Below, piece by piece: positions 12,206-33,077 of a DNA stretch of 64,000 bases (position 1 is the first letter of the stretch; each line of letters opens with the position of its first letter). The position numbers and the translations under genes were made by a program. Origin of the DNA: a phage; the sequence record PZ229304.1; one strand, 5' to 3'. A model generated the notes under the pieces. It saw nothing but the letters and a program-made list of their open reading frames with translations. It had not been told where the DNA came from and made no database searches.

Positions 12206-12223
12206 AAGGGGCTTTCGCCCCTT
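12206..12223. terminator. Hairpin AAGGGGC-TTTC-GCCCCTT between hypothetical gene and DNA polymerase
   Basis: 7-bp perfect GC-rich stem with T-rich flank. Confidence 0.4.
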
Positions 12224-12227
12224 CTTG

Positions 12228-12623: not shown

Positions 12624-12632
12624 ATTTTCTCC

Positions 12633-14417: not shown

Positions 14418-14687
14418 CTAAAATGATTCGTTTGTCTCCATAATATATTGCATTTCCAAATCTTCCATATGTTTCTTAAATTGGTAAACAATTTCCGATG
14501 GGGAAATATCTATATCAAAAAGTTCTTTTGTACCAGAATAAAACCTAATACCATCAACAATAAGACCACCATAATAATCCCAATCACTTTCTCGTGAGAA
14601 AGGATTAGGTTCTTCATAATAGTAATCTACTTCAACAATAATAGGTTCTTTATTATCTTGTTTATACTCAAAATCAAAAGTGTTCAT
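14418..14687 (-). CDS. Hypothetical protein
   Basis: 89-aa acidic/aromatic-rich ORF in array. Confidence 0.35.
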   Translation of the reverse strand: MNTFDFEYKQDNKEPIIVEVDYYYEEPNPFSRESDWDYYGGLIVDGIRFYSGTKELFDIDISPSEIVYQFKKHMEDLEMQYIMETNESF

Positions 14688-15631: not shown

Positions 15632-15642
15632 ATCGCTCCTTA

Positions 15643-17290: not shown

Positions 17291-17299
17291 AATAACTCC

Positions 17300-19880: not shown

Positions 19881-20477
19881 TTACTCGAACCAATCGTCGC
19901 CAGCGCCAAACGCTTTAACTACATCGTAAATGTCAAGCCCAGCTTTACCTACACCATATGCTTTCAGTTTCCATTCGCTATCTTCTCGCACCAGGGAGGC
20001 AACGTGGCAAATGGTGTTACCTGCAAGTTCTGGAGCCAAGAAGTCAAAGTCCAGCAGTTCAACATTACGTTCATCATCGAAGATTTTAAGGAAACCTTCG
20101 GTAGCGTGACCAAGGCGTTTCTTACCCGTTTCGTCATCAATAGTAATTACGAATGCAATTTCCTGTGCTTCAGCAGAGATATTATCCAGTGTAACATCAA
20201 TCTGCTCCATCTGTCCTACACCATCACGAACATCTTCACCTGCAAAAGTAGAACGTTCAGGATCAAATTTCTGCGCGTAGCACACCAGGTGACGAGGAGA
20301 CAACAGTTCCGGCAGACCAGATGCATTGTGTCGGCAAATCAGAGCACTAACATCCAGATCCAGTTTTTCGTTAGATTTCCAAGAGAATTCCAGACGAATG
20401 CGTTTCAGTGCTGGTGCGATCTTTTTCAGAGAAACTTTTTCGCTAGAACCTTTTTTCAGGGAAATTTTCTGAGTCAT
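19881..20477 (-). CDS. TerD-family protein (tellurium-resistance/stress-response TerD domain)
   Basis: 198 aa; segment-by-segment similarity to E. coli/plasmid TerD as recalled (ISLKKG..KVSL; DLDVSALIC; IAFVITIDD; FLKIFDDERNVELLDFDF; EWKLKAYGVG); AAGGAG RBS. Confidence 0.75.
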   Translation of the reverse strand: MTQKISLKKGSSEKVSLKKIAPALKRIRLEFSWKSNEKLDLDVSALICRHNASGLPELLSPRHLVCYAQKFDPERSTFAGEDVRDGVGQMEQIDVTLDNISAEAQEIAFVITIDDETGKKRLGHATEGFLKIFDDERNVELLDFDFLAPELAGNTICHVASLVREDSEWKLKAYGVGKAGLDIYDVVKAFGAGDDWFE

Positions 20478-20549
20478 AATTTATTATCTCCTTTGTTGTT
20501 AATTTACGTTGTCTATTTTACTAATCTTTTCTACAAAGTCAAGCGTTTT

Positions 20550-21344
20550 TTACGCTTTTGCTCCGAATTTTTTAACCCACTCACCAAACTCTTCGGATAG
20601 CAGTTTATCGTAAAGTTCTTCGTCAGACAAGGACAAATCTGCAATACCGATAAAATCAACATTATCGTATTCTTTTGCCAAGTCTTTCAAGAATTTAAAG
20701 TTTGCATTACCTACACCAACCATAAACCAGTAAACAGGAGTGTTGCGGTGTTTGTTCAGCAAACTACGTACTGCTGAAGTATCCATGTTCTCCCCGTCAG
20801 TTTGGAAGAAAATCATTGCAGGAGTACGATCAACTTGTGCATCAGTATCTACAACCTGCTCTACAACAGTACGTGTTACTTCTACAAGTTCTTTTTTACC
20901 AGTTAGTTTAGCAAGGAAACCTTTAGCCGGAACTTCTTCATACTCAACGACTTCGCGTGTAATATTTTTCATAGGTACACTACCGAAGTATGTATCATAG
21001 ATCTCTTGCATTACTGGAGCATAGGCTGTACCACCGTTGATGCAAACATTAGACATGCAAGAGCCGACATAATCATCATACACATCAGCCGTTGCAGGAG
21101 GCAGTTCAAAAGAAGAACTATTGAAAGCCCACATGTCAATCTGTGCATTATCATCAAACTTCATACCAAACGGCAGCAGTTTACCTACAAAATCACTAAC
21201 AGTGCCATCACGATATAGCTCACACATACTACCCGAAATATCTAAGGCGCTACCGACACGAAGAACAACATCGTTAATCTTTTTCTTACGCAGAGATACA
21301 GTAAGAGTTTCTTGACGTTTTTTAAGACTGATTTTATTGGACAT
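20550..21344 (-). CDS. von Willebrand factor A (vWA) domain protein, TerY-like
   Basis: 264 aa; MIDAS-type motif DISGSM near N-terminus followed by vWA-like hydrophobic/polar pattern; immediately upstream of the TerD-like gene, as in ter loci. Confidence 0.6.
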   Translation of the reverse strand: MSNKISLKKRQETLTVSLRKKKINDVVLRVGSALDISGSMCELYRDGTVSDFVGKLLPFGMKFDDNAQIDMWAFNSSSFELPPATADVYDDYVGSCMSNVCINGGTAYAPVMQEIYDTYFGSVPMKNITREVVEYEEVPAKGFLAKLTGKKELVEVTRTVVEQVVDTDAQVDRTPAMIFFQTDGENMDTSAVRSLLNKHRNTPVYWFMVGVGNANFKFLKDLAKEYDNVDFIGIADLSLSDEELYDKLLSEEFGEWVKKFGAKA

Positions 21345-21345
21345 A

Positions 21346-21615
21346 TTATTTCTCCTTTCTGACTATAATGTTAGTAACTTCTAAATCCACTTCTACCACT
21401 TCTGTATCATATAAAATACAGTTAAGTTGACCTCTTTGTGAACCGTTCAGACACATTGCTTGGTTTGTATTAACCTTAATAAACACTAAGTTTATGAACG
21501 TATCTAAACCAGAATCTTGATAGGCAACATAATATACGAATGTATCACCTGCGTCAAGTTCTCCAAAACATTTAGGTTCATCTGATTTGTCGTCTTTGAT
21601 GTTAAATTTAAGCAC
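21346..21615 (-). CDS. Hypothetical protein
   Basis: 89-aa ORF in array. Confidence 0.35.
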   Translation of the reverse strand: MLKFNIKDDKSDEPKCFGELDAGDTFVYYVAYQDSGLDTFINLVFIKVNTNQAMCLNGSQRGQLNCILYDTEVVEVDLEVTNIIVRKEK

Positions 21616-22171
21616 TGTCTTCTCCTTTACCTGCTCTCAAGCCTAAATAGAAAGCCTCTCTGGTGATCTTTTGCAACTCGTTTAAAGCGATAGTTACAAC
21701 TAAATCATCTTCAATTTCTAGCTTTGAGTCTTCTTCTGTCTCAATGCAAGTATTATGCACTTTGTGGTAAGGATTGTCAACACGTTTAAATTTATTATTT
21801 TCAGTGCTGAAGAAGCAATCTGGATCTTCTTCCCCATCACCCAAACCCTGGTTAGGATCTTCTTCAGATCTTTCTGTTGGGATCTCACCTGTAAAGTGCT
21901 CTTCTAATACCAGAGCAATCCCATCTCCAAGATCGGAAGAGAACATCAAATTACAAACTTCTTCCCAAGGCATAGACCACTTAAATCTTTTACGATTACC
22001 ATGTTTATCTTCTTCGTTAGAGAAAACACTACCATAGCTATCATAATTCCCATACATCTCTTCGACAACCTTACCACCTTTCAAAAGAAATAGGTAGCAA
22101 GGAGAGCCATCGAAAGAGGTAGAAAGAGCAGCATTACCAGACTCTTTGCACAAGAAACTAAAACACCCCAT
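21608..22171 (-). CDS. Hypothetical protein (acidic)
   Basis: 187-aa ORF. Confidence 0.4.
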   Translation of the reverse strand: MGCFSFLCKESGNAALSTSFDGSPCYLFLLKGGKVVEEMYGNYDSYGSVFSNEEDKHGNRKRFKWSMPWEEVCNLMFSSDLGDGIALVLEEHFTGEIPTERSEEDPNQGLGDGEEDPDCFFSTENNKFKRVDNPYHKVHNTCIETEEDSKLEIEDDLVVTIALNELQKITREAFYLGLRAGKGEDSA

Positions 22172-22371
22172 TATACACCAGCCTTAAGATCAATTAAAGC
22201 CAAAGTTGTTTCAGAGTGTGTTTGCTCGTCTACAGGTGCAGTCATATGATAATACAAAAAATCTTCGGCATCATACCAATCTGACTCTTGACCTTGTTTC
22301 CAACCATCAATGAAAGCATCTTCCATAATTGTTTGTAACTCTTCACGAGTTAAGTGAATATCTTTACTCAT
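22171..22371 (-). CDS. Hypothetical protein
   Basis: 66-aa ORF with start/stop overlap to neighbours. Confidence 0.35.
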   Translation of the reverse strand: MSKDIHLTREELQTIMEDAFIDGWKQGQESDWYDAEDFLYYHMTAPVDEQTHSETTLALIDLKAGV

Positions 22372-22604
22372 TACACATTCTCCTCTTTTACCAATTCCAT
22401 CGTTGAACTATCAAAACCATCTTTAGAAGAATAGGTATAGACAGAACGTAGTTCGCGCAGGACAGTGAATACATTAGGATCATCTAACCAAGCATCCTGG
22501 AGGAGAACATAACGATCTTCATTGTCGTACTGGACAGCAATCATAGAACCAGACAGTTTGTAAATTTTAATATTCATAATATATTTCTCCTTAAAGTAGA
22601 CCAC
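22371..22604 (-). CDS. Hypothetical protein
   Basis: 77-aa ORF. Confidence 0.35.
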   Translation of the reverse strand: MVYFKEKYIMNIKIYKLSGSMIAVQYDNEDRYVLLQDAWLDDPNVFTVLRELRSVYTYSSKDGFDSSTMELVKEENV

Positions 22605-23694
22605 GTTTAACAGTTTGAATCATGCCATCTTCAAGAGATTGCACTTCTTGAATGTAATCAATACGAGCAGCACGGGCTTCAGTGTTGATTCGGTTAGTTT
22701 CTTCCAACATTTTAACTAAGTTTTCTTGATCACGACGTAATGTTTCAATATCCAACACTTGACGATTAGCAAGTTGTGTAGCTTCAATTTGGTTTTGTGC
22801 AGCAAGATCACTACCCATTGCAATAGCAGCATTAAATTCATTCAGTACATTGTTCTGTGTATCGGCTGCTTTCTTCTGGCGTAGACTTTCAATATACATA
22901 GAAAAGTTTGCAGAGTAAGCAGGAATAACATTATTCACAATATTACGGGCTGATCGCATCAAACTTGCAGATACTTTCTGCATACTTTGTACACGTGGCC
23001 CCATCTGAACACACAGTAAGCGTAGGGCTTTCAGGTCTGCAATACGAATTTCAAGCAGATCCATAGTATCACGAGTACGTTGACGCTCTTCTACCTCATT
23101 TTCAGGCAGTGTATTAAGGCGAACTTCTTCTTTTTCATAAGTAGCTGTTAGAAGCTCTATATCTCTGTTTAAGCTAAGAGCATATTTGGCAATAGCCTCT
23201 TCTAAACGTTGCAGATATCGTAAAGAATCTTCTTCTTTTTTCAAGTCTGTTTGGAGTGTCTTTACCAAACCTTCAATACGATTATTGATGGTGTCAAATT
23301 CTCCAAACAAATCTTCTTTCATACCTAATACTTTCTTAACTAACTTACCTAAACCTTTAGATTGTTTAATAGAATTAGGATCAAGTTGCTTTGCTTGCTT
23401 AATAAGTGCAGTTAAACGTTCACTCATTTCATCTCCCTGAGATGAACGCTGGTGTTTAAGCACTTCAGCATTAAGGTTACGAAGAGTAAGTCCTGCATCA
23501 GCACCAACCTGTTCAATCTCTTCACGAGACATTGGAGGCAGCATTTGTACAGGTCGTGCAACAGCAGGGGCATATACAGGACTTGCATCCATAGCAGTTG
23601 GAGCAAACAAAGACTTACTTTTTTCTGTTGTTGCCGTGAATACACTCATTTCAGACGGTTTGCTTTTTACGGCACTGATAAAAGGACTGGACAT
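22591..23694 (-). CDS. TelA/KlaA-like (toxic anion resistance family) coiled-coil protein, tentative
   Basis: 367 aa, predominantly coiled-coil, size and composition compatible with TelA; assignment leans on genomic context (TerD, vWA, TerC neighbours) rather than a recognised signature. Confidence 0.4.
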   Translation of the reverse strand: MSSPFISAVKSKPSEMSVFTATTEKSKSLFAPTAMDASPVYAPAVARPVQMLPPMSREEIEQVGADAGLTLRNLNAEVLKHQRSSQGDEMSERLTALIKQAKQLDPNSIKQSKGLGKLVKKVLGMKEDLFGEFDTINNRIEGLVKTLQTDLKKEEDSLRYLQRLEEAIAKYALSLNRDIELLTATYEKEEVRLNTLPENEVEERQRTRDTMDLLEIRIADLKALRLLCVQMGPRVQSMQKVSASLMRSARNIVNNVIPAYSANFSMYIESLRQKKAADTQNNVLNEFNAAIAMGSDLAAQNQIEATQLANRQVLDIETLRRDQENLVKMLEETNRINTEARAARIDYIQEVQSLEDGMIQTVKRGLL

Positions 23695-23762
23695 TCAATT
23701 TCCTCCATATTCTTTAGTAGATGGTGATACCTCTGTACCACCATCATAACACAAATTAAGTA

Positions 23763-24614
23763 TTAAACAAACATATCTAAATAATTTGTAGTAATAAACG
23801 CCCCATCTGCTTCCAGATTAACATAACCAGTAGCATTAGTGGTTAAGAAATCCAGATCGAAGGACTCTTTAACACCCCGTACCTCAACACGAGAGATATC
23901 GAATACAGGTAGTGTAACAGCCTCTTCGTGCAATACCGTACCTTTGTAGGTTGCCTTAATGATAAACTTGATATTACCCGTTCCAGCATCATACAAAACA
24001 CTTTCAAACCCTTTGAGAGTATATTTATCACCAGAAGTGAAGTGCAAAGTTGCTTTGTTTACAGTACGTTTTTTACGAGGAGTTCCTTTCACACGTTTAT
24101 GATCACTACGTTTTTTGTATTTAGGAATGAATACAAACGATACACTCTCAAGAAAGGTATCAACATCAAGGATTTTAATATCCTCTGTTGCAGCAAATTT
24201 TGAAGTCGTTGCATCAAAATGCTTTTCCCTGCGATCATACATAAAGATATCAAACCGATCTTCTAAATCAAACAAATTATGTATTTTAATTTCAGAATGC
24301 TTGCGCATTGCAGCAACCTTGAACTCTTCAAAACGTGGGTGTTCTACAAGTTCTTCAAGTTTTACACCAAAGACAGTATATTGCTTCGGAGTTTTTTCTG
24401 GTGTTGGCATTACAGAAGCATAATCCCCGATTGCGCTCTTAAAGCAAAATTGTTCTTGACCTGTATTTTTACCAACGAATTTACAGTATTCGTCATCGTG
24501 CATACTTTCCTGGGTAGTACCAACAAACTCAAAACCATCTTTATTCTTCTCAAGAATTTCTTGATTAAAGATCCAACCTTCCAGGCGATACACTTTACCA
24601 ACTTCTAGTTTCAT
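23763..24614 (-). CDS. Hypothetical protein
   Basis: 283-aa ORF. Confidence 0.4.
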   Translation of the reverse strand: MKLEVGKVYRLEGWIFNQEILEKNKDGFEFVGTTQESMHDDEYCKFVGKNTGQEQFCFKSAIGDYASVMPTPEKTPKQYTVFGVKLEELVEHPRFEEFKVAAMRKHSEIKIHNLFDLEDRFDIFMYDRREKHFDATTSKFAATEDIKILDVDTFLESVSFVFIPKYKKRSDHKRVKGTPRKKRTVNKATLHFTSGDKYTLKGFESVLYDAGTGNIKFIIKATYKGTVLHEEAVTLPVFDISRVEVRGVKESFDLDFLTTNATGYVNLEADGAFITTNYLDMFV

Positions 24615-24649
24615 CTGTTTCTCCTTCTTATTTAATCTGTATTAAATTA

Positions 24650-25240
24650 TTAACGACGACGTGAGCTACTAAAACTACGTTTCGACGAAGAATAACTTTT
24701 CGAAGACTTACTATAAGAGCTAATAGGACTTGAGTAAGACTTACGAGCAGAGTAATCACTATTCACTTTTGTTGTTGATGGGCGTGAATACGTTTGTACA
24801 CTTTGCTGCTTAATTGTGTTTTGTTTAGTTGTTGTATATGTATTCCCTTGTTTATCATAAAAACTATGCTTTTGTGTTGTATATGCTTTACTATTAGTTG
24901 CAGGAGCAGCATTGTTATTAATAATGGTTGTATTGCTACCACCATCTCTATAACCACCACCGCCACTATTACCACTCAACATATGACCAAGAAGCATACC
25001 TGTAGCAAAGTCACCTACACCAGAAGAACCACTGCCGCCTCCTTGAACAACAACTGTTGAAGGTTGTGCAGGTGCTGCTTGAACAACTTGAGGTGCAGGT
25101 TGATTTACATATTGTTCATCTACCATCTGATTTGGTGTTTGTTGGTAACGTTGATTTTGTACATTTTCAGAATCATCACAACCTACCAGCAATGCACTAC
25201 CTAAAACAACTGCAACAATAAAAGATTTAATGTTTTTCAT
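24650..25240 (-). CDS. Lipoprotein with glycine-zipper-like and Ser/Tyr/Lys-rich low-complexity regions
   Basis: Start set at MKNIKSF (GAGAGGG RBS); signal peptide with lipobox LLVGC; Gly-rich stretch GSGSSGVGDFATGMLLGHMLSGNSGGGG; C-terminal SYSKSSKSYSSSKRSFSSSRRR. Confidence 0.5.
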   Translation of the reverse strand: MKNIKSFIVAVVLGSALLVGCDDSENVQNQRYQQTPNQMVDEQYVNQPAPQVVQAAPAQPSTVVVQGGGSGSSGVGDFATGMLLGHMLSGNSGGGGYRDGGSNTTIINNNAAPATNSKAYTTQKHSFYDKQGNTYTTTKQNTIKQQSVQTYSRPSTTKVNSDYSARKSYSSPISSYSKSSKSYSSSKRSFSSSRRR

Positions 25241-25433
25241 TTGTAACCCTCTCATTTAAAGTCTCAACACAATTTTTAAAATCCCTAGAGAAACAATACA
25301 TCTGCTCTCCGTTCCTGTTGATAGTAATTGTATGGTTATCAATATATGTTGTCAAGATAAAAATTAAACAAAACAACCCTAAAGCAAAACAAATATTTTC
25401 AAACAGAATCCAAAGAACACGTAAAACCACCAT
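25227..25433 (-). CDS. Small membrane protein (hypothetical)
   Basis: 68 aa with one hydrophobic span; overlaps lipoprotein start by 14 nt. Confidence 0.3.
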   Translation of the reverse strand: MVVLRVLWILFENICFALGLFCLIFILTTYIDNHTITINRNGEQMYCFSRDFKNCVETLNERVTNEKH

Positions 25434-25448
25434 CAGATCACCTCAATA

Positions 25449-25466
25449 AAGCCCCCGAAGGGGCTT
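25449..25466. terminator. Hairpin AAGCCCC-CGAA-GGGGCTT
   Basis: 7-bp perfect stem between TerC-like gene and small membrane gene. Confidence 0.4.
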
Positions 25467-25472
25467 AATGAA

Positions 25473-26450
25473 TTAAGCAACAGCCTGGTCTTCTTTTTCA
25501 GGGAAGATTAAACTTGCAAGAACACCCAGCCCAAGAGTACCTAACACAATATACATACTGATCGTCGGGTCAATGTGTGCTGGCAGGAAACTCATTTTTG
25601 CGTGCAGAGTTTCTGCAAACGGATGATACATCAGTTTTACACCCACAAATACCAGGACTACGATAACTGCTTTCTCCAGATGAACCAAATATTTCAGTGC
25701 AACACTAAGAACAAAGAACAGAGCACGTAAACCTAAGATTGCACAGAGCATCGAAGAGAACACCAGCAGAGGTTCTTGTGTCACTGCAATTACTGCTGGA
25801 ACAGAGTCTACTGCAAAGATTACGTCAACCATTTCCATTACAAACACACAAACCAGAGCCGGAGTTGCTACACGAACACCATTTTTGATTGTGAAGAACT
25901 TCTCACCATCCATCTGATCAGATACAGGGAACAGCTTACGAACAATGCGAGTAGCCCAGTGTTTAGAGTAATCAACTTCTGCATCATTATCTCCAGCGAA
26001 TACCATTTTAGCCGCACAGAAAAGGATGACAGCACCGAAGAAGATATTAACATACCAGCCCAAACTCAACAAGTAAGTACCTACTGCTACAAACACACCT
26101 CGGAAGACAATCGCACCTGCAATACCCCAAAGTAGAATCTTGTGTTGCAAGTGTGTGCTTTTAATACCAAAACTTGCGAATACTGCCACAAATACTACTA
26201 AGTTATCTACAGAAAGAGATTTCTCCAACACATACCCACTCAAAAACAAGCTCGCAAAATCAGCACCGTGTTGGAAGTATACAAAACCATAGTAGGCTAA
26301 TGATACCCCAATCCAGAAAATTGACCAACCAATTGCAGATTTAAATGAAATTTCTTTGTTTTCTCTGTGTCCAAAGAAATCAATACAAATCGACAACACT
26401 AAAATACCCACTAAAACAACCACATCAATAATTGGGAAACCCAGTTGCAT
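25473..26450 (-). CDS. TerC-family integral membrane protein
   Basis: 325 aa, multiple TM segments; LSVDNLVVFVAVFASFG matches the conserved TerC SxDN motif region. Confidence 0.7.
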   Translation of the reverse strand: MQLGFPIIDVVVLVGILVLSICIDFFGHRENKEISFKSAIGWSIFWIGVSLAYYGFVYFQHGADFASLFLSGYVLEKSLSVDNLVVFVAVFASFGIKSTHLQHKILLWGIAGAIVFRGVFVAVGTYLLSLGWYVNIFFGAVILFCAAKMVFAGDNDAEVDYSKHWATRIVRKLFPVSDQMDGEKFFTIKNGVRVATPALVCVFVMEMVDVIFAVDSVPAVIAVTQEPLLVFSSMLCAILGLRALFFVLSVALKYLVHLEKAVIVVLVFVGVKLMYHPFAETLHAKMSFLPAHIDPTISMYIVLGTLGLGVLASLIFPEKEDQAVA

Positions 26451-26527
26451 TCTTTCCTCCTCTTTAATGCGGAGGACAATCCTCCGCTCTATGTCTTATA
26501 CTATAAACTGTTTTTAAAGAAAGTCAA

Positions 26528-26776
26528 CTAGTTCAGTTCTGTAATTTTAAGTTTATCTTCTTTGTTAATGATAGGGAAAGCTACAGCATCACCTACATCA
26601 TCAATAAAGCAAATAGCAAGACCACCTTCCACTTTGCTAACCTGACCGTTAAAGGCATGATACGGGGCAGGAACTTCATCCCCATCTTCAATGAGAATAG
26701 CCTCGTAAACCTTGCCGATAGTACAATCACGGGTGTTTATAAATTTTTCAAGCACTTCAACATTTACTTTACGCAT
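26528..26776 (-). CDS. Hypothetical protein
   Basis: 82-aa ORF. Confidence 0.35.
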   Translation of the reverse strand: MRKVNVEVLEKFINTRDCTIGKVYEAILIEDGDEVPAPYHAFNGQVSKVEGGLAICFIDDVGDAVAFPIINKEDKLKITELN

Positions 26777-26790
26777 ATAAAGATCCTCTC

Positions 26791-26997
26791 TTATTTGTTA
26801 GATTGAAAGATACCACGAAGTACCGCAAGAATGAACGTCACACAGACTACACTCCAAAACGTTACAGGAACATGATGCCAGTCTAAGCCGATAATGTCAA
26901 TCATATAGTTGTATGCTAAAAGCAGTAACCAACTAGGGATTAACACAATCAAGAACACAACAATAAAACAACCTAATACTGCTAAAACACCTGCCAT
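26791..26997 (-). CDS. Small membrane protein (two predicted TM helices)
   Basis: 68 aa, almost entirely hydrophobic. Confidence 0.35.
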   Translation of the reverse strand: MAGVLAVLGCFIVVFLIVLIPSWLLLLAYNYMIDIIGLDWHHVPVTFWSVVCVTFILAVLRGIFQSNK

Positions 26998-27006: not shown

Positions 27007-27723
27007 TTATTTCAGTTTGTAAACAATTACATTTAAACCTTTGTTCACTAGAGTTTCTTCGATCATAAGTTTTACAATATTCCAAGAACCTCCAGCCAAA
27101 CCACAACCAAGCATTGGTAAACCTACAATTTTACCGCCTGAAGATACAACATCGTCTCCCATACTATCTAACGCATTGTAGATAGCTTCATAATCCAGGT
27201 CACGCTTACCTTCCTCACGACGACTATAACCATATTGTCCATATAAATTATAAATTGTCAAATTGTTTTCTGTATACTTAGTAAACGTACCTAATTTTTT
27301 ATAATCACCACGTTTAGTGGCACAATCTGCTTTAAACGCACCAGGCCACTTGCTTTTAATTTTTGGTGCAATACCACTACCCATAGTGCAAAAACAGTTA
27401 CAGCAGTGTGCTATAGCGTCTATATCGCCTCTCTCGGCTGCTGCTAAAAGATCACCGTATACCTCAATGATACCTGCTGGATAACTTGTTACAATTTCAT
27501 CTTCCCAATACATTTTCTCTACACCACCGATCAGTGCAAAGTTTTGTGTAATGCGATCATCAATATAGTTAAGACCTGAAACATACACAGCATATTCATC
27601 CTGTGCTGTAATGCCTTGTACACGAATTCTTAAGACACCATCTTTATCTGTTGCTACGCGCCCAAAATCTTTTTCTGTAATATTGGTGATAGGATCTCCG
27701 AAAGTCATTACTTTATTAGACAT
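27007..27723 (-). CDS. Macro-domain-like protein (ADP-ribose binding/processing)
   Basis: Start set at MSNKV (AAGGGGA RBS, 8-nt overlap with upstream gene); DIDAIAHCCNCFCTMGSGIA resembles the macro-domain AIVNAAN...GGGGV(D)GAI region and GKIVGLPMLGCGLAGGSW the downstream FPxIStG-like region. Confidence 0.5.
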   Translation of the reverse strand: MSNKVMTFGDPITNITEKDFGRVATDKDGVLRIRVQGITAQDEYAVYVSGLNYIDDRITQNFALIGGVEKMYWEDEIVTSYPAGIIEVYGDLLAAAERGDIDAIAHCCNCFCTMGSGIAPKIKSKWPGAFKADCATKRGDYKKLGTFTKYTENNLTIYNLYGQYGYSRREEGKRDLDYEAIYNALDSMGDDVVSSGGKIVGLPMLGCGLAGGSWNIVKLMIEETLVNKGLNVIVYKLK

Positions 27724-28573
27724 AATAATCCCCTTTAACATTAGATTTGTTGATAATGTTGCTTTCAAAAAATTGACGCAGGAAATCAAAGTTCTCTTTG
27801 TATTTTTCAATATTATTGTAACCTTCTGCAAGGCAACCAAAGAACAGTTGTTCTACATAATACAAAGGAAGTTGTGAAAGTGCAATTTTAAAATCAACTT
27901 CGCTTTGACTCATTAGATACTTAATAGGACGAACCAAACATTTAGCATCAGTTTCTTGCTTAATCATTTTAATAAAAGCTGCCAGGTTATTGATATAGTT
28001 GAAGTTAAGTGCAGCTTCGGTGTTGGCTTCTGTACCTTCATACTTTGCAAAGTACAGGAAAAACGTATCGTTTTCAACACCTTCTTTGTCTAAAATTTCA
28101 ATAAGTTTTTCTTCGTGTGTTCCTGTAATATTAACATCATCAATGAAAATCAGAGTTTTATTACCCCAGAAATCACGATTGATAGAGAAAGTGTCACCAT
28201 CGATCAAAGCCTTACGATCTTCTTTGCTAAGAAATCCATAATCATTGATATAACTCACTTTACGATGAACGATATCCCACTCCACTGCTTTACCTCCTTT
28301 GATAGAGATTAGGTAGTTGAGGTGATCTACAAAATGCTCAGATAACACTGTAGCTGCATTTTTCACATAATTATATGGAGATGGAATAACAACAAAACTT
28401 TCATTTACTAGTCGTTCTTCATATTTAGAAAAGAAACTTTCAGCCAGAATGCGTCCCATTCTTTTTGCTGCCTGGTTACTGCCAAACTTTAGTTTGGAAT
28501 AATCTGCAATGTTAAATTTTGCTTCCTTCAGGTTAGTAAAAGTATTAGCAAAATGTTGAATTTGATTACGCAT
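27716..28573 (-). CDS. Phosphoribosyltransferase (type I PRTase fold) domain protein
   Basis: 285 aa; KTLIFIDDVNITGTHEE matches the PRPP-binding motif (hydrophobic-hydrophobic-DD-x-x-TG-x-T) of type I PRTases. Confidence 0.5.
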   Translation of the reverse strand: MRNQIQHFANTFTNLKEAKFNIADYSKLKFGSNQAAKRMGRILAESFFSKYEERLVNESFVVIPSPYNYVKNAATVLSEHFVDHLNYLISIKGGKAVEWDIVHRKVSYINDYGFLSKEDRKALIDGDTFSINRDFWGNKTLIFIDDVNITGTHEEKLIEILDKEGVENDTFFLYFAKYEGTEANTEAALNFNYINNLAAFIKMIKQETDAKCLVRPIKYLMSQSEVDFKIALSQLPLYYVEQLFFGCLAEGYNNIEKYKENFDFLRQFFESNIINKSNVKGDYYV

Positions 28574-29222
28574 TAATAAGTTCCTCTTTTTTAAGTTTAG
28601 CCAACAAGTCTTCTGGATTAATAATATGACAGAACTTCATCCCTATGTCAACAGCTTTTCCATCATAAATCAAACTATCTCCAACGTGTAAAATCTCCTC
28701 TGGTGCGAGATCAAACGTTACCATTTCATCAAAAGAGAGTTTAAAAAACCTAGGATCTGGTTTACACAAGCAAAACTCGTCAGAAAAATGCATAAAGTCG
28801 AATGGTAATTTTGTTAAACCAGAATATACAGCTAAGAAACTACCTGGTACAAAATTAGTATTACTCTTAATACTCAAAGAGTAGGTTGAACTTAGCTCTT
28901 CCAACTTCTTGCAAAGTTCAGGATTCAATGTTGGAGGATGTTTTATAAACATTGCTAAACAGTCTCTTTTTAACCCATCCACTTTATCAAGATCAATATT
29001 CAAATGAGTAGAAAGTGTTTCCCAAGCATTCCTAGACGTTCCACAAATTCCTTTTTCTGCTTTTAAATCCAGGAGAGTTTTTACCTCTTTATATACGGTA
29101 GCTGCTTCTGCTTCAGAACAAGAGGCATACTCGGCAATAACCTTGTTGCGTTCTTCTGCATACAAAGGATTAGCAGTAATAAGAGTATTCCATACATCAA
29201 AAGAAATATGCTTAACAGTCAT
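28566..29222 (-). CDS. HAD-superfamily hydrolase-like protein
   Basis: Start set at MTVKH (GGAGG RBS); motif-I-like FDVWNTL (nucleophile Asp, second Asp replaced by Asn) and motif-IV-like VGDSLIYDG; 8-nt overlap with PRTase gene. Confidence 0.45.
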   Translation of the reverse strand: MTVKHISFDVWNTLITANPLYAEERNKVIAEYASCSEAEAATVYKEVKTLLDLKAEKGICGTSRNAWETLSTHLNIDLDKVDGLKRDCLAMFIKHPPTLNPELCKKLEELSSTYSLSIKSNTNFVPGSFLAVYSGLTKLPFDFMHFSDEFCLCKPDPRFFKLSFDEMVTFDLAPEEILHVGDSLIYDGKAVDIGMKFCHIINPEDLLAKLKKEELINA

Positions 29223-29391
29223 TTTTAATCCTCCGTCCAAAAGAATATCATCTGCTTAATTTTATTGATCTCTTGATGTAGTAACTTTCCAGCATGTGAT
29301 TGATCTTTAATATTGACAGCAAGAATTTCAAGCTCCGTTAGTTTTTCCTGGATAGCTTTATATTCATCATCTGTAAGCATTTTCTTCCCCT

Positions 29392-29583
29392 TTAGAATGG
29401 TAATCTTTGTATGTCACTTATACCCACACCAAGAAGTCTAGCAATATCCTTATCTAAAAGCAACTCTTTTTGTTCTAAAATGTTAATCAGATCTCCTAAT
29501 ACTTCTTTAATATCACGATCATTTTTAGCAACGTGACCACCTGCGGTATCAACTTTATCTTTAAAAACAAAATAATGATCCAT
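29392..29583 (-). CDS. Hypothetical protein
   Basis: Start set at the internal ATG preceded by GGAGGG. Confidence 0.3.
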   Translation of the reverse strand: MDHYFVFKDKVDTAGGHVAKNDRDIKEVLGDLINILEQKELLLDKDIARLLGVGISDIQRLPF

Positions 29584-29602
29584 AATACCCTCCATATAAA
29601 TA

Positions 29603-29626
29603 AAGGAGGCTTTCGCCTCCTTTTAT
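29603..29626 (-). terminator. Terminator hairpin AAGGAGGC-TTTC-GCCTCCTT after the ATPase gene
   Basis: 8-bp perfect stem; T-run follows on the minus strand. Confidence 0.5.
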
Positions 29627-29629: not shown

Positions 29630-30790
29630 TTAGTAAGAACGACCACCAAACACATACTCTGTGTAGTTTTTACGTTCTTTGTTTTTAATAACAACTTCAA
29701 TGTTGTTGCCTTTATCATCGGTGAACACAAAGTGATAACCGTCACCACCCATTGTACGGATGTGTTTTTCATCATACGTCAGCAAGATACGGTCTACACC
29801 CCAGTAGTAGTCACCTTCTTCGTCTTTATCTTCTACGGTAACTACTCCTTCCATTTCAGGAAGATGCTCTTCTCCTGACTTATGATCTACAGCTACAACA
29901 TAACGATTACCGCTAAACAAACCTTGTGCTGTCATACCGTCAATATCTGTATCTGACGAAACATCTCCTGTACGATCTACACCGTTAACTTTCAGAAGTT
30001 TAACTTCTTTTGCAGCATAGCGGTGTTCAGTGATACTGATACCCATTAATGCAAGTGCATCAGAGAATTTGTCATTAGGGTAACGGTTAAGTTCTTCTAC
30101 TAAGGACTGAACAATATCAAAGTTCAAATCCACGGAAAGATTATAAAGCGTTTCAAAATCTGGTAAAAAGGCTTTGTTCTCCAGATTTTTAGCCAGATAG
30201 TCATCCATAGTAGCTTTAGGTAGTTTCTTATAGCTAAAGCTGTAGAAAATACGGCTAGGACGATTACGCAAAAATTCTGATACATAACCATCATTTTTAG
30301 TCAATACAAACAGCTTGTCGTAGCCACCTACACCATCCAGCAGGGTAAGCAAACCATCTTGTGCATCTTTTTCAGCATACAGTTTATCAAATTCATCGAT
30401 CATAATCATCACAGGCTGTGTGATTTTAGACATAAAATTGATAAAGCCTTCACCATTAAAAGCACTACCGATAGAAATAGTAGGAATACCCATTTCACGA
30501 AGAGCAGAAGACAGCATTTTAGCTTGCAAAGTTTTACCGCTACCTTTCGTACCCTCAAGGAGAACGCCTGTGTTTTTACCTTTGCGGCTAAGGAACGTCT
30601 TGATAATACGTTCTGATTTATCATCAGTATCACCGTATGTTACTGAAGGGACTTCCATATCGTTTTTAGGATACAGGAAGAACTCGCCACTTTGAGTAAC
30701 ACCTACACCAAAAGTTCCTGCTGGAATTTCTTCAATATCTGTACCAGATTTCTGACGCAGGAAGATTTGATTGCCGAATACTGTAAACAT
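29630..30790 (-). CDS. P-loop ATPase (AAA+-like), paralog 1
   Basis: 386 aa; Walker A GTKGSGKT, Walker B IMIDEFDK, LTKN sensor-like and NRPSRIFY (SRC-box-like) motifs; paralogous to 45807..46934. Confidence 0.55.
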   Translation of the reverse strand: MFTVFGNQIFLRQKSGTDIEEIPAGTFGVGVTQSGEFFLYPKNDMEVPSVTYGDTDDKSERIIKTFLSRKGKNTGVLLEGTKGSGKTLQAKMLSSALREMGIPTISIGSAFNGEGFINFMSKITQPVMIMIDEFDKLYAEKDAQDGLLTLLDGVGGYDKLFVLTKNDGYVSEFLRNRPSRIFYSFSYKKLPKATMDDYLAKNLENKAFLPDFETLYNLSVDLNFDIVQSLVEELNRYPNDKFSDALALMGISITEHRYAAKEVKLLKVNGVDRTGDVSSDTDIDGMTAQGLFSGNRYVVAVDHKSGEEHLPEMEGVVTVEDKDEEGDYYWGVDRILLTYDEKHIRTMGGDGYHFVFTDDKGNNIEVVIKNKERKNYTEYVFGGRSY

Positions 30791-30810: not shown

Positions 30811-31281
30811 TTAGTCAGATTCCCAAATGTTGTCTTTCTTAACCCACATTCGTTGATTATCTGAACCTCTATAACGTTTCGTTGTTGGTTGATTCATATC
30901 ATACTTACCATCTATCACTATGTCAACCAGTTTTTTAATTTTCTCTGGAATTTCTTCAAAAAGATATCCTGTATATAAGACAATATCTTTTTTGTTTCCA
31001 AAACAATCTCTTACCTTCTCAAGAACATACTCTACAGTGTCAATGTTCTCTTTGTCAAGAGGTTCACCACCTAAAACTGTTAATCCTTTAATGAAAGGTC
31101 GAGATAAATCTTCCAAGATAAGATCTAATGTTTCAGCAGTGAACTCTTGTCCGTAGTTATACGACCAGGCTTTCTGGTTAAAGCAGCCACGGCAACCGTG
31201 GCTACAACCGCTCACCCACAAAGAGCATCTTACACCGTCACCGTTGAGCATGTCAACAGGTTCATATCCGGCGTAATTCAA
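30811..31281 (-). CDS. nrdG: Anaerobic ribonucleotide reductase activating protein (radical SAM)
   Basis: 156 aa; CSLWVSGCSHGCRGC radical-SAM cysteine cluster; close overall resemblance to E. coli NrdG; 4-nt overlap with nrdD. Confidence 0.85.
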   Translation of the reverse strand: MNYAGYEPVDMLNGDGVRCSLWVSGCSHGCRGCFNQKAWSYNYGQEFTAETLDLILEDLSRPFIKGLTVLGGEPLDKENIDTVEYVLEKVRDCFGNKKDIVLYTGYLFEEIPEKIKKLVDIVIDGKYDMNQPTTKRYRGSDNQRMWVKKDNIWESD

Positions 31282-33077
31282 AAGTGTTTCTCCCTTTCTA
31301 GTACCTCTTGCATTTTACCTTTATTATAAGGGCGAGAATTAGGGGCAGAAAGGTATCCTGACACTCTTCTGATTACAGATATGGATTCTTCTTCATGATT
31401 ACCGCAACTTGGACACTCGAAGCCTTTAGCTGTTGCCTTAAATTCACCATGAAAACCACATTTGAAACACTGATCTACAGGTTGGTTCACGCCAAAATAA
31501 GGAATTTTGTTGTAGGCATAATCTACAAGAGTTTCCAGTGCTTGCAAGTTATTTTTAAGGTTTGGTGTTTCTACATAACCTATGTTCCCACCATTACTAA
31601 TTTGTGCAAAACCTTCCTCATAATCCCACTTTTGGAACGGGGTAGTGTGCATCCACACAGGTTGATGGAAAGAGTTTGTCAAGTAGTCACGATCAATAGA
31701 ACCAGGATAGCGATCATTTAATGCTTTGGCAAATTTATAGCACAAGGATTCTGCTGGTGTTCCATACAAACTAAAAGCTAAACCAGAACGTTCTTTAAAT
31801 GTGCAACAGATATCCTTCATATATTGAAGGATGTTTTTACCCATTGCTTTTGGATTGGTGTTATTTGGGTATAAAATCTCCATAGCTTCTGCTAAACCTA
31901 CATAACCGATACTAATAGAGGCATAACCACCTTCAAATAGTTTACCAATCTCTTCATTAGCTTCTAGTCGAGCTAAAGCCCCTTCCATAAACAATGTAGG
32001 GTTTTGAGATGCTTTGGTATGTCTAATACGGTTAACACGTAGCATATGTGCCTTATACGCCATCTCCATATGTTGTTCCAACAGTTCAGTAAATAAGATG
32101 CCCTTTTCACGGGACTCTGCTGCAATGATAGGTAAGTTTAAAGAAACTACGCCTAAGTTGAAACGACCATCATATTTTTCACCTTGCTCTGTTGCATAGT
32201 ATGACAAGAAGCTACGGCAACCCATGCTTGTGACGCGACCATCTGAAGATCCTGTAACTTCTTTGTTTAAAGGTACAGAGATAAAATCAGGATAAATGCG
32301 TTCAGCACAACACTCCATTGCCAGTTGCTTCAAATCATAGTTTGGATCGCCAGCTTTCATGTTAACACCATCTTCCAAGAAGAAGATAACTTTAGGAAAT
32401 ACAGGAGTTACCCTATCTTTCCCTAAGCCTTGTTTGTGCACCATCAGGTAGTTTTTAGTGATCATTCTACCAAAAGCAGAGGTATCCAAACCTAAACTAA
32501 TTGTTATAAAAGGTGACTGACCATTTACACTCATTAGGGTGTTCACCTGGTAGATTAAAGTTTGCATTGCATCGTACACCTGTTTATCTACCATACGCAT
32601 AGCAATATCATAATCACCAACATCAGCATAGATTTTATTAAAACTTGCTTTAACGTATTGACTAAGCCCAGTATCAATATGTGCACAAGTTTGTCCACCA
32701 TATTGGCTAGAAGCTACTGCTTGAATAATTTGAGTTAGGACAGTAGTTGCTACACCGATAGATTTTGGTTTTTCAATATGTGCATTACCAATACGGAAAC
32801 CGTTCTCAAGCATATCTTGGTAATTTACCAGGCAACAATTAGTTAAAGGTGAGAGTAAATAATCTAAATCGTGGATGTGACCATACCCACTTTTATGCCA
32901 TTCTGCTAAATCTTCCGGTAAAATATGGGTCATTGCCATGTGCTTGCTTAGGATACCTGCTAGTAAATCTCGGTGAGTATTAACAATCATTGCAGGTTTG
33001 TTTGCATTTTCACGAGTAAATTCTTCGGATGTTTGTTCGAGGAATCCGATTACATCCTCATATAGTTTTTGGGTCAT
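31278..33077 (-). CDS. nrdD: Anaerobic ribonucleoside-triphosphate reductase (class III)
   Basis: 599 aa; C-terminal zinc ribbon (CFKCGFHGEF...CPSCGN) followed by glycyl-radical motif RRVSGYL. Confidence 0.9.
   Translation of the reverse strand: MTQKLYEDVIGFLEQTSEEFTRENANKPAMIVNTHRDLLAGILSKHMAMTHILPEDLAEWHKSGYGHIHDLDYLLSPLTNCCLVNYQDMLENGFRIGNAHIEKPKSIGVATTVLTQIIQAVASSQYGGQTCAHIDTGLSQYVKASFNKIYADVGDYDIAMRMVDKQVYDAMQTLIYQVNTLMSVNGQSPFITISLGLDTSAFGRMITKNYLMVHKQGLGKDRVTPVFPKVIFFLEDGVNMKAGDPNYDLKQLAMECCAERIYPDFISVPLNKEVTGSSDGRVTSMGCRSFLSYYATEQGEKYDGRFNLGVVSLNLPIIAAESREKGILFTELLEQHMEMAYKAHMLRVNRIRHTKASQNPTLFMEGALARLEANEEIGKLFEGGYASISIGYVGLAEAMEILYPNNTNPKAMGKNILQYMKDICCTFKERSGLAFSLYGTPAESLCYKFAKALNDRYPGSIDRDYLTNSFHQPVWMHTTPFQKWDYEEGFAQISNGGNIGYVETPNLKNNLQALETLVDYAYNKIPYFGVNQPVDQCFKCGFHGEFKATAKGFECPSCGNHEEESISVIRRVSGYLSAPNSRPYNKGKMQEVLEREKHF

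What the first reader, a model, noticed from the sequence alone, without database searches (positions are those of the whole stretch)
27007..29222. Overlapping macro-domain / phosphoribosyltransferase / HAD operon beside the Ter module: candidate nucleotide or ADP-ribose metabolite pathway
Three genes are translationally coupled by 8-nt overlaps: a HAD-like hydrolase (FDVWNTL, VGDSLIYDG), a type-I PRTase-fold protein (LIFIDDVNITGT PRPP-binding motif) and a macro-domain-like protein. PRTase and HAD genes are a recurrent partner module of Ter systems in bacteria, predicted in the literature to make a nucleoside-like metabolite. The added macro domain suggests ADP-ribose or NAD-derived chemistry, possibly reversing host ADP-ribosylation or restoring NAD-related metabolites depleted by host immunity.
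Basis: partly seen in the sequence, partly recalled or inferred. Interest (0 to 1): 0.75.

Follow-up and report, generated by a model that had tools for sequence, protein, structure and literature searches.

The report
Phage Ter-linked enzyme pair plus macrodomain
Three tightly packed genes of a phi92-like E. coli phage are correctly identified, but they look like two separate units: a hydrolase–phosphoribosyltransferase pair always inherited together, often beside tellurite-resistance (Ter) genes, and a macrodomain related to a phage T4 protein that disarms the bacterial DarTG2 defence.

Summary
On the minus strand lie a HAD hydrolase (28566-29222), a PRTase_3 phosphoribosyltransferase (27716-28573) and a macrodomain protein (27007-27723), joined by two 8-nt ATGnnTAA overlaps. 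TerC, TelA, vWA-TerF and TerD lie downstream. The window is 98-99% identical to phi92-like coliphages, some of whose public records already carry these three domain names.

The single-pathway interpretation is only partly supported. HAD sits directly upstream of PRTase_3 in all 41 related loci examined (phages, rhizobial plasmids, MAGs). Ter genes lie nearby in 18 of them. This is the Ter-linked 'nucleoside-like metabolite' module already predicted in the literature, including for phages.

The macrodomain lies within the fetched flank in 11 loci: 10 from the phi92/phAPEC8 clade and one, 6.3 kb away, in an unrelated 198-kb contig. In some relatives another gene separates it from PRTase_3. Its family occurs in 2,992 phage records, against 157 for PRTase_3.

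It is a TARG1/DarG-class macro fold and a homolog (30% identity) of T4 Tk.4/AdfM, reported to neutralise DarTG2. Its first 84 residues are a remnant of a neighbouring MazG-like gene.

Verdict: real, mostly already explained, a new member of known kinds. The product of the HAD-PRTase pair remains unknown.

The parts
28566..29222 (-). HAD-superfamily hydrolase, 218 aa (subfamily IA-like). Motif I is D9-V-W11-N-T13: the nucleophile Asp is present and the D+2 acid is absent. Motif II is SNTNF (120-124), motif III is K154, motif IV is GDSLIYD (181-187). It is the obligate upstream partner of PRTase_3.
   Evidence: Pfam PF00702; PHROG 14393; NCBIfam IA subfamilies, all below cutoff; closest PDB sequence 2om6, E 2e-8; motif conservation in 21 homologs; adjacency in 41/41 loci.
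27716..28573 (-). PRTase_3 (ComF-like, Ter-associated) type I phosphoribosyltransferase, 285 aa. PRPP loop D145-D146-V-N-I-T150-G-T152; LKFG loop at 28-31; extra C-terminal helical domain (about aa 185-280).
   Evidence: Pfam PF15610, E 1e-41; AlphaFold model pLDDT 90.7; Foldseek hits to HGPRT, ComF and PyrR at probability 1.0; invariant residues across 26 homologs.
27010..27471 (-). Macrodomain (aa 85-238 of the 238-aa protein), ALC1-like/TARG1-DarG class, Tk.4/AdfM family. N109 is conserved. Q163 replaces the catalytic Lys of TARG1/DarG, and A210 replaces TARG1 D125.
   Evidence: Pfam Macro; PHROG 335, E 2e-65; DarG profiles, E 1e-13; PDB sequences SCO6735, BT1257 and TARG1; model pLDDT 88-98 with TARG1 TM 0.90 and DarG 0.80; T4 Tk.4 30% identity, E 4e-18; alignment.
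27472..27723 (-). N-terminal 84-aa extension of the macro protein. It is homologous to the N-terminal half of a separate 184-188-aa 'N-domain + MazG-like pyrophosphatase' gene that lies between PRTase_3 and the macro gene in related phages. In this lineage the MazG part is gone and the remnant is fused in frame.
   Evidence: BLASTP E 6e-7; sequences; PHROG 1247 MazG-like, E 1e-21 to 1e-23, with a weak Pfam MazG hit; low-confidence model, pLDDT 34-54.
29225..29595 (-). Two small upstream ORFs (67 aa at 29392-29595; 51 aa at 29225-29380) between a terminator-like hairpin and the HAD start. They are probably co-transcribed with the operon.
   Evidence: no Pfam match; hairpin at 29602-29623.
26528..26997 (-). 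Two small downstream ORFs: a 68-aa protein whose sequence suggests two transmembrane helices (26791-26997; inferred by eye, no TM prediction run), conserved directly after the macro gene throughout the clade, and an 82-aa protein (26528-26776). A hairpin follows, then a promoter-like site before terC.
19881..26450 (-). Phage Ter module: TerC 25473-26450, TelA 22591-23694, vWA-TerF-like 20550-21344 and TerD 19881-20477, interspersed with unannotated ORFs.
   Evidence: Pfam; annotation of phage KMB37.

Best explanation
The locus holds two functionally separable units that are co-transcribed in the middle-gene array of a phi92-like phage.

Unit 1 is HAD + PRTase_3, an obligate two-gene module and the minimal form of the Ter-associated 'nucleoside-like metabolite' pathway. 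The inferred mechanism is that PRTase_3 joins PRPP to an unidentified base-like acceptor to give a ribonucleoside 5'-monophosphate. The HAD enzyme then removes the phosphate, or otherwise processes the product. The product is presumed to act with the phage's TerD/TerC/TelA/vWA-TerF membrane-associated module, as proposed in the literature for superinfection exclusion or stress handling.

Unit 2 is an orphan DarG-like macrodomain of the T4 Tk.4/AdfM family. It most likely binds ADP-ribose and removes it from DarT2-modified thymidines in phage DNA, acting as a counter-defence independent of unit 1. Its N-terminal 84 residues are a fused remnant of a neighbouring MazG-like gene.

Shown here: folds, families, motifs, gene order and phyletic patterns. 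Inferred: all enzymatic activities, the substrates and the biological roles.
For: Identity of the proteins.

Evidence for the pairing:
- HAD lies immediately upstream of PRTase_3 in all 41 loci examined, in phages of about 55-350 kb, rhizobial plasmids and Bacteroidetes MAGs.
- Ter genes lie within the fetched flanks in 18 of these loci.
- Clustering of neighbouring ORFs in 14 selected phage loci found only vWA-TerF, TerD, TelA and TerC-type proteins as recurrent partners.

Literature: Iyer et al. 2021 (PMC7824862) describe PRTase+HAD as the signal-biosynthesis arm of Ter systems and note it in jumbo 'and certain other related smaller' phages.

Evidence that the macrodomain is independent:
- A macrodomain lies within the fetched flank in 11 loci. 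Ten belong to the phi92/phAPEC8 clade; the other (L011) lies 6.3 kb away.
- In L002, L009 and L010 one or two other genes separate it from PRTase_3.
- The macro family is in 2,992 phage records, against 157 for PRTase_3.

The AdfM link:
- 30% identity and E 4e-18 to T4 Tk.4.
- A T4-like tk.4 shares the family signature: the CNC motif with N109, NLY-x-Q-Y/F, and G-x-G-x-x-G-x-W.
- The closest solved sequences overlap largely (BT1257, SCO6735, TARG1, DarG), though in a different order: Poa1p ranks ahead of SCO6735 for Tk.4 and is marginal for the window protein.
- T4 Tk.4 knockout sensitises T4 to DarTG2 (bioRxiv 10.1101/2025.11.20.689424).
- The PhiKZ macrodomain AdfM removes DarT2 ADP-ribose from DNA (PMC13309987).
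Against: - No activity has been measured for any of the three proteins, in this phage or in its clade.
- The macrodomain lacks the catalytic Lys of DarG (K80) and TARG1 (K84), having Q163 instead. It also lacks TARG1 D125, having A210. T4 Tk.4 shares the Gln, but its enzymatic mechanism was only inferred in the preprint. At 30% identity the substrate could differ.
- The HAD enzyme lacks the D+2 general acid/base of canonical HAD phosphatases. Trp11 takes its place and is conserved, so 'phosphatase' is not secure.
- The HAD-PRTase_3 pair also occurs with no Ter gene within 8 kb in 23 loci. The Ter link is therefore frequent but not obligatory.
- Throughout the phi92/phAPEC8 subfamily the macro gene always follows PRTase_3. 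Conserved synteny cannot exclude a clade-specific functional link.
Confidence: 0.6

Rival explanations
1. One reading: the three enzymes form a single pathway. PRTase_3 and HAD make a ribosylated or ADP-ribose-related small molecule, and the macrodomain binds or hydrolyses it. An example would be a Poa1p-like ADP-ribose-1''-phosphate phosphatase step, or removal of ADP-ribose from a nucleoside-like product.
For: - The genes are tightly packed, with 8-nt overlaps.
- The order HAD-PRTase_3-(x)-macro is conserved across the phi92/phAPEC8 clade down to 65% PRTase identity.
- In some relatives the intervening gene is another nucleotide enzyme, MazG-like.
- Poa1p, an ADP-ribose-1''-phosphate phosphatase, is among the structural neighbours.
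- One unrelated 198-kb phage contig has a macro gene 6.3 kb from its HAD-PRTase_3 pair (L011).
Against: - 30 of the 41 HAD-PRTase_3 loci have no macro gene in the fetched flank.
- At least 95% of phage records carrying this macro family have no PRTase_3 (2,992 against 157).
- Variable genes are inserted between PRTase_3 and the macro gene.
- Overlaps are common in this gene array.
- The T4 family member acts without any PRTase or HAD partner.
Confidence: 0.12
2. An NAD-restoring or NAD-salvage counter-defence: the operon rebuilds NAD+ or related metabolites depleted by Thoeris- or SIR2-type systems, analogous to the NARP pathways or to NadV/NatV.
For: A PRTase is formally the type of enzyme used in NAD salvage. 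In a distant jumbo-phage contig a homologous macrodomain sits near NAMPT, a NUDIX protein and SIR2 (L005).
Against: - PRTase_3 gave no Pfam match to NAPRTase/NAMPT at E <= 0.01.
- Its model matches type I purine/pyrimidine PRTases, ComF and PyrR.
- No adenylyltransferase, Prs-like or Nudix gene is annotated in the replication/nucleotide block or in the other stretches of the relative that were fetched.
- The recurrent partners of the pair are Ter proteins, not NAD enzymes.
Confidence: 0.04
3. The macrodomain reverses a different ADP-ribosylation, not DarT2 DNA modification. Candidates are protein (Glu-linked, as I recall was reported for SCO6735/TARG1) or RNA ADP-ribosylation, or removal of marks placed by the phage's own or a competitor's ADP-ribosyltransferases. 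It might also be only an ADP-ribose binder.
For: The closest solved sequences are SCO6735 and BT1257, ahead of DarG. The catalytic Lys of DarG is absent. The fused N-terminal domain suggests some clade-specific adaptation.
Against: T4 Tk.4 has the same Lys-less signature and is genetically required against DarTG2. The NCBIfam and PADLOC DarG profiles are the only hits in their respective libraries.
Confidence: 0.2

Closest known systems
Ter-associated PRTase + HAD 'nucleoside-like metabolite' biosynthetic module (Anantharaman, Iyer & Aravind 2012; described in phages by Iyer et al. 2021, PMC7824862)
   Same: PRTase_3 (PF15610) is paired with a HAD hydrolase and encoded next to TerC, TelA, vWA-TerF and TerD. 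A phage setting has already been noted for the Acinetobacter jumbo phage ME3 'and certain other related smaller tailed phages'.
   Different: Only the two-gene minimal version is present. No ATP-grasp amidoligase or TIM-barrel C-C lyase was found among the ORFs of 19.2-30.8 kb. This PRTase_3 subfamily is mainly phage-borne (157 phage records, against 15 loci in a pattern-seeded scan of one genome for each of 100,044 species). It often occurs without Ter genes, for example on rhizobial plasmids. The product and function remain predictions.
T4 Tk.4 = AdfM, anti-DarT factor macrodomain (bioRxiv 10.1101/2025.11.20.689424)
   Same: Same phage macrodomain family (PHROG 335): 30% identity, the same Lys-less active-site signature (N...NLYxQ...GxGxxGxW), and no DarT-binding domain.
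   Different: The window protein carries an extra 84-aa N-terminal remnant domain. It sits in a Ter/PRTase neighbourhood rather than near tk. It has not been tested against DarTG2.
PhiKZ gp104 AdfM and the bacterial DarG2 macrodomain (PMC13309987; PDB 5M3E, 5M3I)
   Same: TARG1/DarG-class macro fold (TM 0.78-0.80 normalised to the target). The Asn equivalent to DarG N22 is conserved (N109).
   Different: DarG and PhiKZ AdfM keep the catalytic Lys (K80/K78), where the window protein has Gln163. DarG also has a C-terminal DarT-binding domain and an adjacent darT gene, both absent here.
Human TARG1/OARD1, and the SCO6735/BT1257 bacterial macrodomains
   Same: These are the best structural match (TARG1, TM 0.90, rmsd 2.2 A) and the best sequence matches (SCO6735 and BT1257, E about 6e-15). 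SCO6735 and BT1257 share the GQ(H/Y)G and GCGLAGG motifs.
   Different: TARG1 K84 and D125 are replaced by Q163 and A210. Biological contexts differ: eukaryotic protein de-ADP-ribosylation and Streptomyces physiology, against a lytic phage.

Membership tests
PRTase_3 (PF15610), type I phosphoribosyltransferase fold | Profile match above the Pfam gathering score | tested here: met
   143.5 bits against a cutoff of 28.7, E 1e-41, covering profile positions 14-264 of 264.
PRTase_3 (PF15610), type I phosphoribosyltransferase fold | Type I PRTase core fold with the PRPP-binding loop (two acidic residues, then T-G-x-T) after a central beta-strand | tested here: met
   Model pLDDT 90.7, with strand 140-148 followed by helix 152-163. 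D145, D146, T150, G151 and T152 are invariant or nearly so in 26 homologs. Foldseek hits to HGPRT, ComF and PyrR at probability 1.0.
PRTase_3 (PF15610), type I phosphoribosyltransferase fold | PRPP-dependent transferase activity and a defined acceptor base | not testable with these tools
   No specific enzyme family matched. The public 'orotate PRTase' annotation is unsupported: OPRT appears only at rank 50, and NCBIfam gave no hit.
Ter-linked nucleoside-like metabolite module | PRTase and HAD phosphoesterase encoded together | tested here: met
   HAD is directly upstream of PRTase_3 in the window and in all 41 related loci.
Ter-linked nucleoside-like metabolite module | Neighbourhood with TerD, TerC, TelA and TerF/TerY-type vWA genes | tested here: met
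   TerC and TelA; TerD and vWA-TerF-like. All lie within 9 kb downstream on the same strand.
Ter-linked nucleoside-like metabolite module | ATP-grasp amidoligase and TIM-barrel C-C lyase components of the full pathway | tested here: not met
   Pfam scans of 17 ORFs between 19.2 and 30.8 kb found neither, and neither is annotated within +/-12 kb in phage KMB37. Three ORFs of 66-68 aa in that interval were not scanned.
HAD-superfamily phosphatase | Motif I nucleophile Asp, motif II Ser/Thr, motif III Lys and motif IV acidic pair | tested here: met
   D9; SNTNF 120-124; K154; G181-D182...D187. All conserved in 21 homologs. Pfam PF00702 is just above its cutoff.
HAD-superfamily phosphatase | Motif I second Asp (D+2), the general acid/base of phosphatases and phosphomutases | tested here: not met
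   The position is Trp11. It is aromatic in all 21 aligned homologs (W in 20, Y in one). The same DVWNT motif occurs in PDB 2om6, which is deposited as a 'probable phosphoserine phosphatase'.
Macrodomain, ALC1-like (TARG1/DarG) class | Macro fold with ADP-ribose-binding glycine-rich loops | tested here: met
   Pfam Macro 31.2 bits against 22. Model pLDDT 88-98 over aa 81-238. TARG1 TM 0.90, DarG 0.80. The TMGSGIA and GCGLAGG loops align to those of TARG1.
Macrodomain, ALC1-like (TARG1/DarG) class | Catalytic Lys (TARG1 K84 / DarG K80) and TARG1 Asp125 | tested here: not met
   Gln163 and Ala210 occupy these columns. Q163 is invariant in 41 family members. The TARG1 alignment was confirmed against PDB sequences.
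AdfM (T4 Tk.4-type orphan anti-DarT2 macrodomain) | Homology to T4 Tk.4 with a shared family signature, and no DarT-binding domain | tested here: met
   BLASTP 30% identity, E 4e-18. PHROG 335, E 2e-65. The DarG profile matches only its macro part, positions 4-147 of 338.
AdfM (T4 Tk.4-type orphan anti-DarT2 macrodomain) | Protects the phage from DarTG2, and removes ADP-ribose from thymidine in ssDNA | not testable with these tools
   Requires phage genetics and biochemistry.
DarG antitoxin of a DarTG toxin-antitoxin pair | Full-length DarG architecture with an adjacent darT gene | tested here: not met
   NCBIfam score is 48.6 bits against a cutoff of 250. The neighbours are PRTase_3 and a 68-aa protein that looks like a small membrane protein. 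PADLOC gave no DarT hit among the other six proteins scanned.
Phage NAD+ reconstitution/salvage pathways (NARP1/2, NadV-NatV) | NAMPT/Namat-type PRTase with an Adps or Nmnat partner | tested here: not met
   No such Pfam hits for the three proteins, and no such annotation in the relative's genome stretches that were fetched.

The most novel reading that the evidence does not exclude
In the phi92/phAPEC8 clade the macrodomain, with its fused N-terminal remnant domain, has been recruited into the HAD-PRTase_3/Ter circuit. It would bind or hydrolyse an ADP-ribose-like or ribosyl-phosphate small molecule made from PRPP by the pair. The three genes would then make and tune a nucleoside-like signal controlling the phage's Ter membrane complex. 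That would give the long-enigmatic Ter systems their first defined metabolite and an enzyme that switches it off.
Probability: 0.1. Interest if true: 0.75.

Novelty: new member of a known kind. Interest (0 to 1): 0.3.

Why it matters
The practical gain is a cleaner hypothesis. The macro gene of phi92-like therapeutic-type coliphages is a ready candidate anti-DarTG2 factor, testable with one deletion.

The HAD-PRTase_3 pair is an invariant, mobile two-gene module on phages and plasmids. Its product is still unknown after more than a decade of prediction.

A lytic E. coli phage that grows on K-12 and carries the minimal module next to a complete small Ter set is a convenient system for finally identifying the Ter-linked metabolite.

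The locus itself holds nothing that a specialist would find surprising.

Tried and rejected
- **Orotate PRTase annotation** (present in many GenBank records): rejected. Only PF15610 matches, NCBIfam gives nothing, and the structural neighbours are HGPRT, ComF and PyrR, with OPRT at rank 50.
- **NAD salvage reading:** rejected for lack of any NAMPT, Nmnat, Adps or Nudix partner.
- **Overlaps as evidence of coupling:** 29% of junctions in this gene array overlap, so they carry little weight.
- **Promoter/terminator scan:** counts are not above the shuffled expectation (55 against 47; 10 against 8.3). Only two hairpins are worth noting.
- **Anantharaman et al. 2012** (PMC4104200): could not be read because it is not held. 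Its content is cited through Iyer et al. 2021.
- **Literature searches** for PF15610/PRTase_3 and for experimental work on Ter-linked PRTases: none found.
- **Acinetobacter phage ME3:** I began fetching it to test for an independent macro-PRTase linkage. I stopped after the first 50 kb, which is the structural region. That test remains undone.
- **N-terminal domain of the macro protein:** no Pfam family and a low-confidence model.
- **Genome scan:** the peptide patterns used are specific to this PRTase_3 subfamily. The low number of bacterial loci (15) does not measure the whole PF15610 family.
Full report
**Source and observation**

The window is 98-99% identical over this region to phi92-like coliphages (ECGD1, PHB05, phi92 and others; subfamily Stephanstirmvirinae).

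- a 218-aa HAD-type hydrolase (28566-29222);
- a 285-aa PRTase (27716-28573);
- a macrodomain protein (27007-27723, 238 aa).

Pfam assigns PF00702 (just above threshold), PF15610 PRTase_3 (E 1e-41) and PF01661 Macro.

Both junctions are 8-nt ATGnnTAA overlaps, each preceded by a good Shine-Dalgarno sequence. Gene callers often choose the ATG at 27741 for the macro gene, which has no such sequence. The HAD start also has a GGAGGA and follows a 51-aa ORF by 2 nt.

TerC and TelA and TerD and vWA-TerF-like lie downstream on the same strand, so 'beside the Ter module' is correct.

The overlaps carry little information. In the annotated relative KMB37, 13 of 45 junctions in this array overlap.

A terminator-like hairpin at 29602-29623, and a hairpin plus promoter-like site at 26469-26527, may delimit a seven-gene unit. 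The scan as a whole is not above chance.

**The proteins**

PRTase_3:
- An AlphaFold model built on 26 homologs has pLDDT 90.7.
- Foldseek places its core among type I PRTases (HGPRT, ComF, PyrR) at probability 1.0, with modest TM-scores because of an extra C-terminal helical domain.
- The PRPP loop (D145-D146...T150-G-T152) and an LKFG loop are invariant or nearly so.
- No specific base can be inferred. The common 'orotate PRTase' annotation has no support.

HAD protein:
- It keeps the nucleophile Asp9, motif II, Lys154 and the GDxxxxD motif.
- It has Trp at D+2, where phosphatases have the general acid/base Asp. This holds across 21 homologs and also in the closest solved sequence, 2om6.
- 'Phosphatase' is therefore a reasonable assignment but not a secure one.

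Macrodomain (aa 85-238):
- It is modelled at pLDDT 88-98.
- It superposes on TARG1 (TM 0.90), BT1257, DarG (0.80), SCO6735 and Poa1p.
- By sequence it is closest to SCO6735 and BT1257 (E about 6e-15), then TARG1.
- In NCBIfam and in PADLOC, the DarG profile is the only hit in that library, covering the macro part only.
- The Asn equivalent to DarG N22 is conserved.
- The catalytic Lys of TARG1/DarG is Gln163, and TARG1 Asp125 is Ala210. Gln163 is invariant in the family.

**Comparative genomics: two units, not one**

I gathered 41 loci encoding a PRTase_3 relative. They came from viral contigs, metagenome contigs, a GenBank phage, a plasmid and a scan of one genome for each of 100,044 species. 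I searched their ORFs with the window's proteins.

- **HAD.** The HAD gene lies directly upstream of PRTase_3 in every locus, usually overlapping or within a few bases.
- **Ter genes.** They fall inside the fetched flanks in 18 loci. Clustering of neighbouring ORFs in 14 selected phage loci found only vWA-TerF (8 of 14), TerD (7), TelA (7), TerC (5) and a second TerC-like membrane protein (4, judged from its sequence) as recurrent partners.
- **The pair alone.** It also occurs with neither Ter nor macro genes nearby, on rhizobial plasmids and contigs (for example pRL10) and in several phage contigs.
- **Macro.** A macro gene lies in the flank of 11 loci. Ten belong to the phi92/phAPEC8 clade (PRTase identity 65% or more). 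The eleventh is 6.3 kb away in an unrelated 198-kb contig.
- **Within the clade.** Adjacency is not strict. In L002, L009 and L010, a 184-188-aa ORF lies between PRTase_3 and the macro gene, and L009 has a further 127-aa ORF.
- **Macro without PRTase_3.** The macro family is found in 2,992 phage records, including T4-like, V5-like, Felix-O1-like and Pseudomonas phages. PRTase_3 is found in 157. At least 95% of macro-bearing records therefore lack PRTase_3.

**A gene fusion**

The first 84 residues of the window's macro protein are homologous to the N-terminal half of that intervening ORF (E 6e-7). The C-terminal half of the intervening ORF is a MazG-like pyrophosphatase (PHROG 1247, E 1e-21 to 1e-23, with a weak Pfam MazG hit).

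In the window lineage, and in the more distant L004, the MazG part is absent and the remnant is fused in frame to the macrodomain. The 90%-identity cluster of the fused form holds 160 sequences, so the fusion is stable.

The fold of the N-terminal piece is not resolved (pLDDT 34-54).

**What is known**

Iyer et al. 2021 (PMC7824862), building on Anantharaman et al. 2012, describe the Ter system as including a biosynthetic arm of PRTases and HAD phosphoesterases. This arm is predicted to make a nucleoside or nucleotide derivative. They report it in the jumbo phage ME3 'and certain other related smaller tailed phages', and propose a role in competition with superinfecting phages. I found no experimental work on the product.

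For the macrodomain there are two recent studies:
- T4 Tk.4 was named AdfM after transposon sequencing and a clean knockout showed it is needed against DarTG2 (bioRxiv 10.1101/2025.11.20.689424).
- PhiKZ gp104, also named AdfM, removes DarT2-made ADP-ribose from DNA (PMC13309987).

The window's macrodomain is 30% identical to T4 Tk.4 (E 4e-18). It shares its Lys-less signature with a T4-like tk.4. PhiKZ AdfM keeps the Lys. Some public records of close relatives already annotate the three genes as phosphoribosyltransferase, macrodomain and HAD-like proteins.

**Mechanism**

The best-supported reading (confidence about 0.6) has two units.

- **Unit 1, HAD-PRTase_3.** It converts PRPP plus an unknown acceptor into a nucleotide and then a nucleoside-like product, which works with the phage's Ter proteins. 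This step is inferred from family knowledge and gene neighbourhood only. PRTase-plus-phosphatase routes to nucleoside-like products have precedents, such as alpha-ribazole formation by CobT and a phosphatase (my own knowledge).
- **Unit 2, the macrodomain.** It is an AdfM-type orphan antitoxin that strips DarT2-type ADP-ribose from phage DNA. This is inferred from homology to a genetically validated family member.

Rival readings:
- a clade-specific single pathway (about 0.12);
- a different ADP-ribosylated target, or binding only (about 0.2);
- NAD restoration (about 0.04).

The probabilities for the second and third rivals overlap partly with parts of the best explanation rather than excluding all of it.

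**Verdict**

The unifying pathway idea is not supported by phyletic patterns. Both units belong to kinds already described, one by prediction and one by experiment.

Still of interest are the unknown product of a strikingly invariant phage/plasmid gene pair, the non-canonical HAD motif, and the MazG-remnant fusion.

Interest is 0.3.

Noticed in passing
window 27472-27723 (minus strand); L002:5457-6011, L009:9227-9793, L010:4024-4590: The N-terminal 84 aa of the macro protein is a remnant of a separate 'N-domain + MazG-like pyrophosphatase' gene that sits between PRTase_3 and the macro gene in related phages. The fused form also occurs in the more distant L004 with a slightly different junction. 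It is unclear whether the fusion arose once or twice.
   Followed up: partly
window 29196-29198 (Asp9 of the HAD gene) and the motif I region 29181-29201: HAD motif I is D-V-W-N-T. The D+2 general acid/base Asp of HAD phosphatases is replaced by Trp, which is conserved in the aligned homologs and in PDB 2om6. This raises doubt about a simple phosphatase role.
   Followed up: partly
L026 (Rhizobium johnstonii pRL10, locus 11370-12843); L034-L045: The HAD-PRTase_3 pair occurs alone on rhizobial plasmids and contigs, with no Ter or macro genes within 8 kb. On pRL10 it lies about 0.9 kb from repA. The pair behaves as an autonomous mobile module.
   Followed up: partly
window 26791-26997 (minus strand): A 68-aa protein, which looks from its sequence like a small two-helix membrane protein, is conserved immediately downstream of the macro gene in every phi92/phAPEC8-clade locus whose sequence extends past the macro gene (L002, L004, L009, L010, L012). 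Function unknown.
   Followed up: no
window 29602-29623 and 26469-26527 (minus strand): A terminator-like hairpin lies after the AAA ATPase gene. A GC-rich hairpin plus a TTGACT-16-TATAGT promoter-like site lies just upstream of terC. Together they may bound a seven-gene transcription unit that contains the three genes.
   Followed up: partly
L007:3177-5296: In one close relative (a 149.5-kb viral contig), the anaerobic ribonucleotide reductase gene nrdD matches in two pieces separated by about 250 nt. In the window it is intact (31278-33077). This could be an insertion, an intron or a frameshift.
   Followed up: no
and one search hit lists (for example MG065639.1, Campylobacter phage A150): Several GenBank records labelled Campylobacter jejuni phages are 95-100% identical to these E. 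coli phi92-like phages. This suggests mislabelled hosts or contaminated lysates.
   Followed up: no
window 14687-17863 (minus strand): Four consecutive ORFs (337, 314, 187 and 180 aa) correspond to four genes annotated as glycosyltransferases in relative KMB37. They lie just downstream of the Ter module, between it and the primase/helicase and DNA polymerase genes. Their target (host envelope or DNA) is unknown.
   Followed up: no
window 29630-30790 (minus strand); L032:4033-5160: The 386-aa AAA ATPase upstream of the operon is conserved in position in most of the Justusliebigvirus-like loci, but no match was found in L012 or L033. It has a paralog elsewhere in the relative's genome (E 2e-76).
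   Followed up: no
L005:1997-6911: In a 368-kb contig deposited within a genome assembly (apparently a jumbo phage), a homologous macrodomain sits in tandem with a second macrodomain. NAMPT, a NUDIX protein and SIR2 lie within about 5 kb. The same macro family is therefore used in an NAD-centred neighbourhood elsewhere.
   Followed up: no
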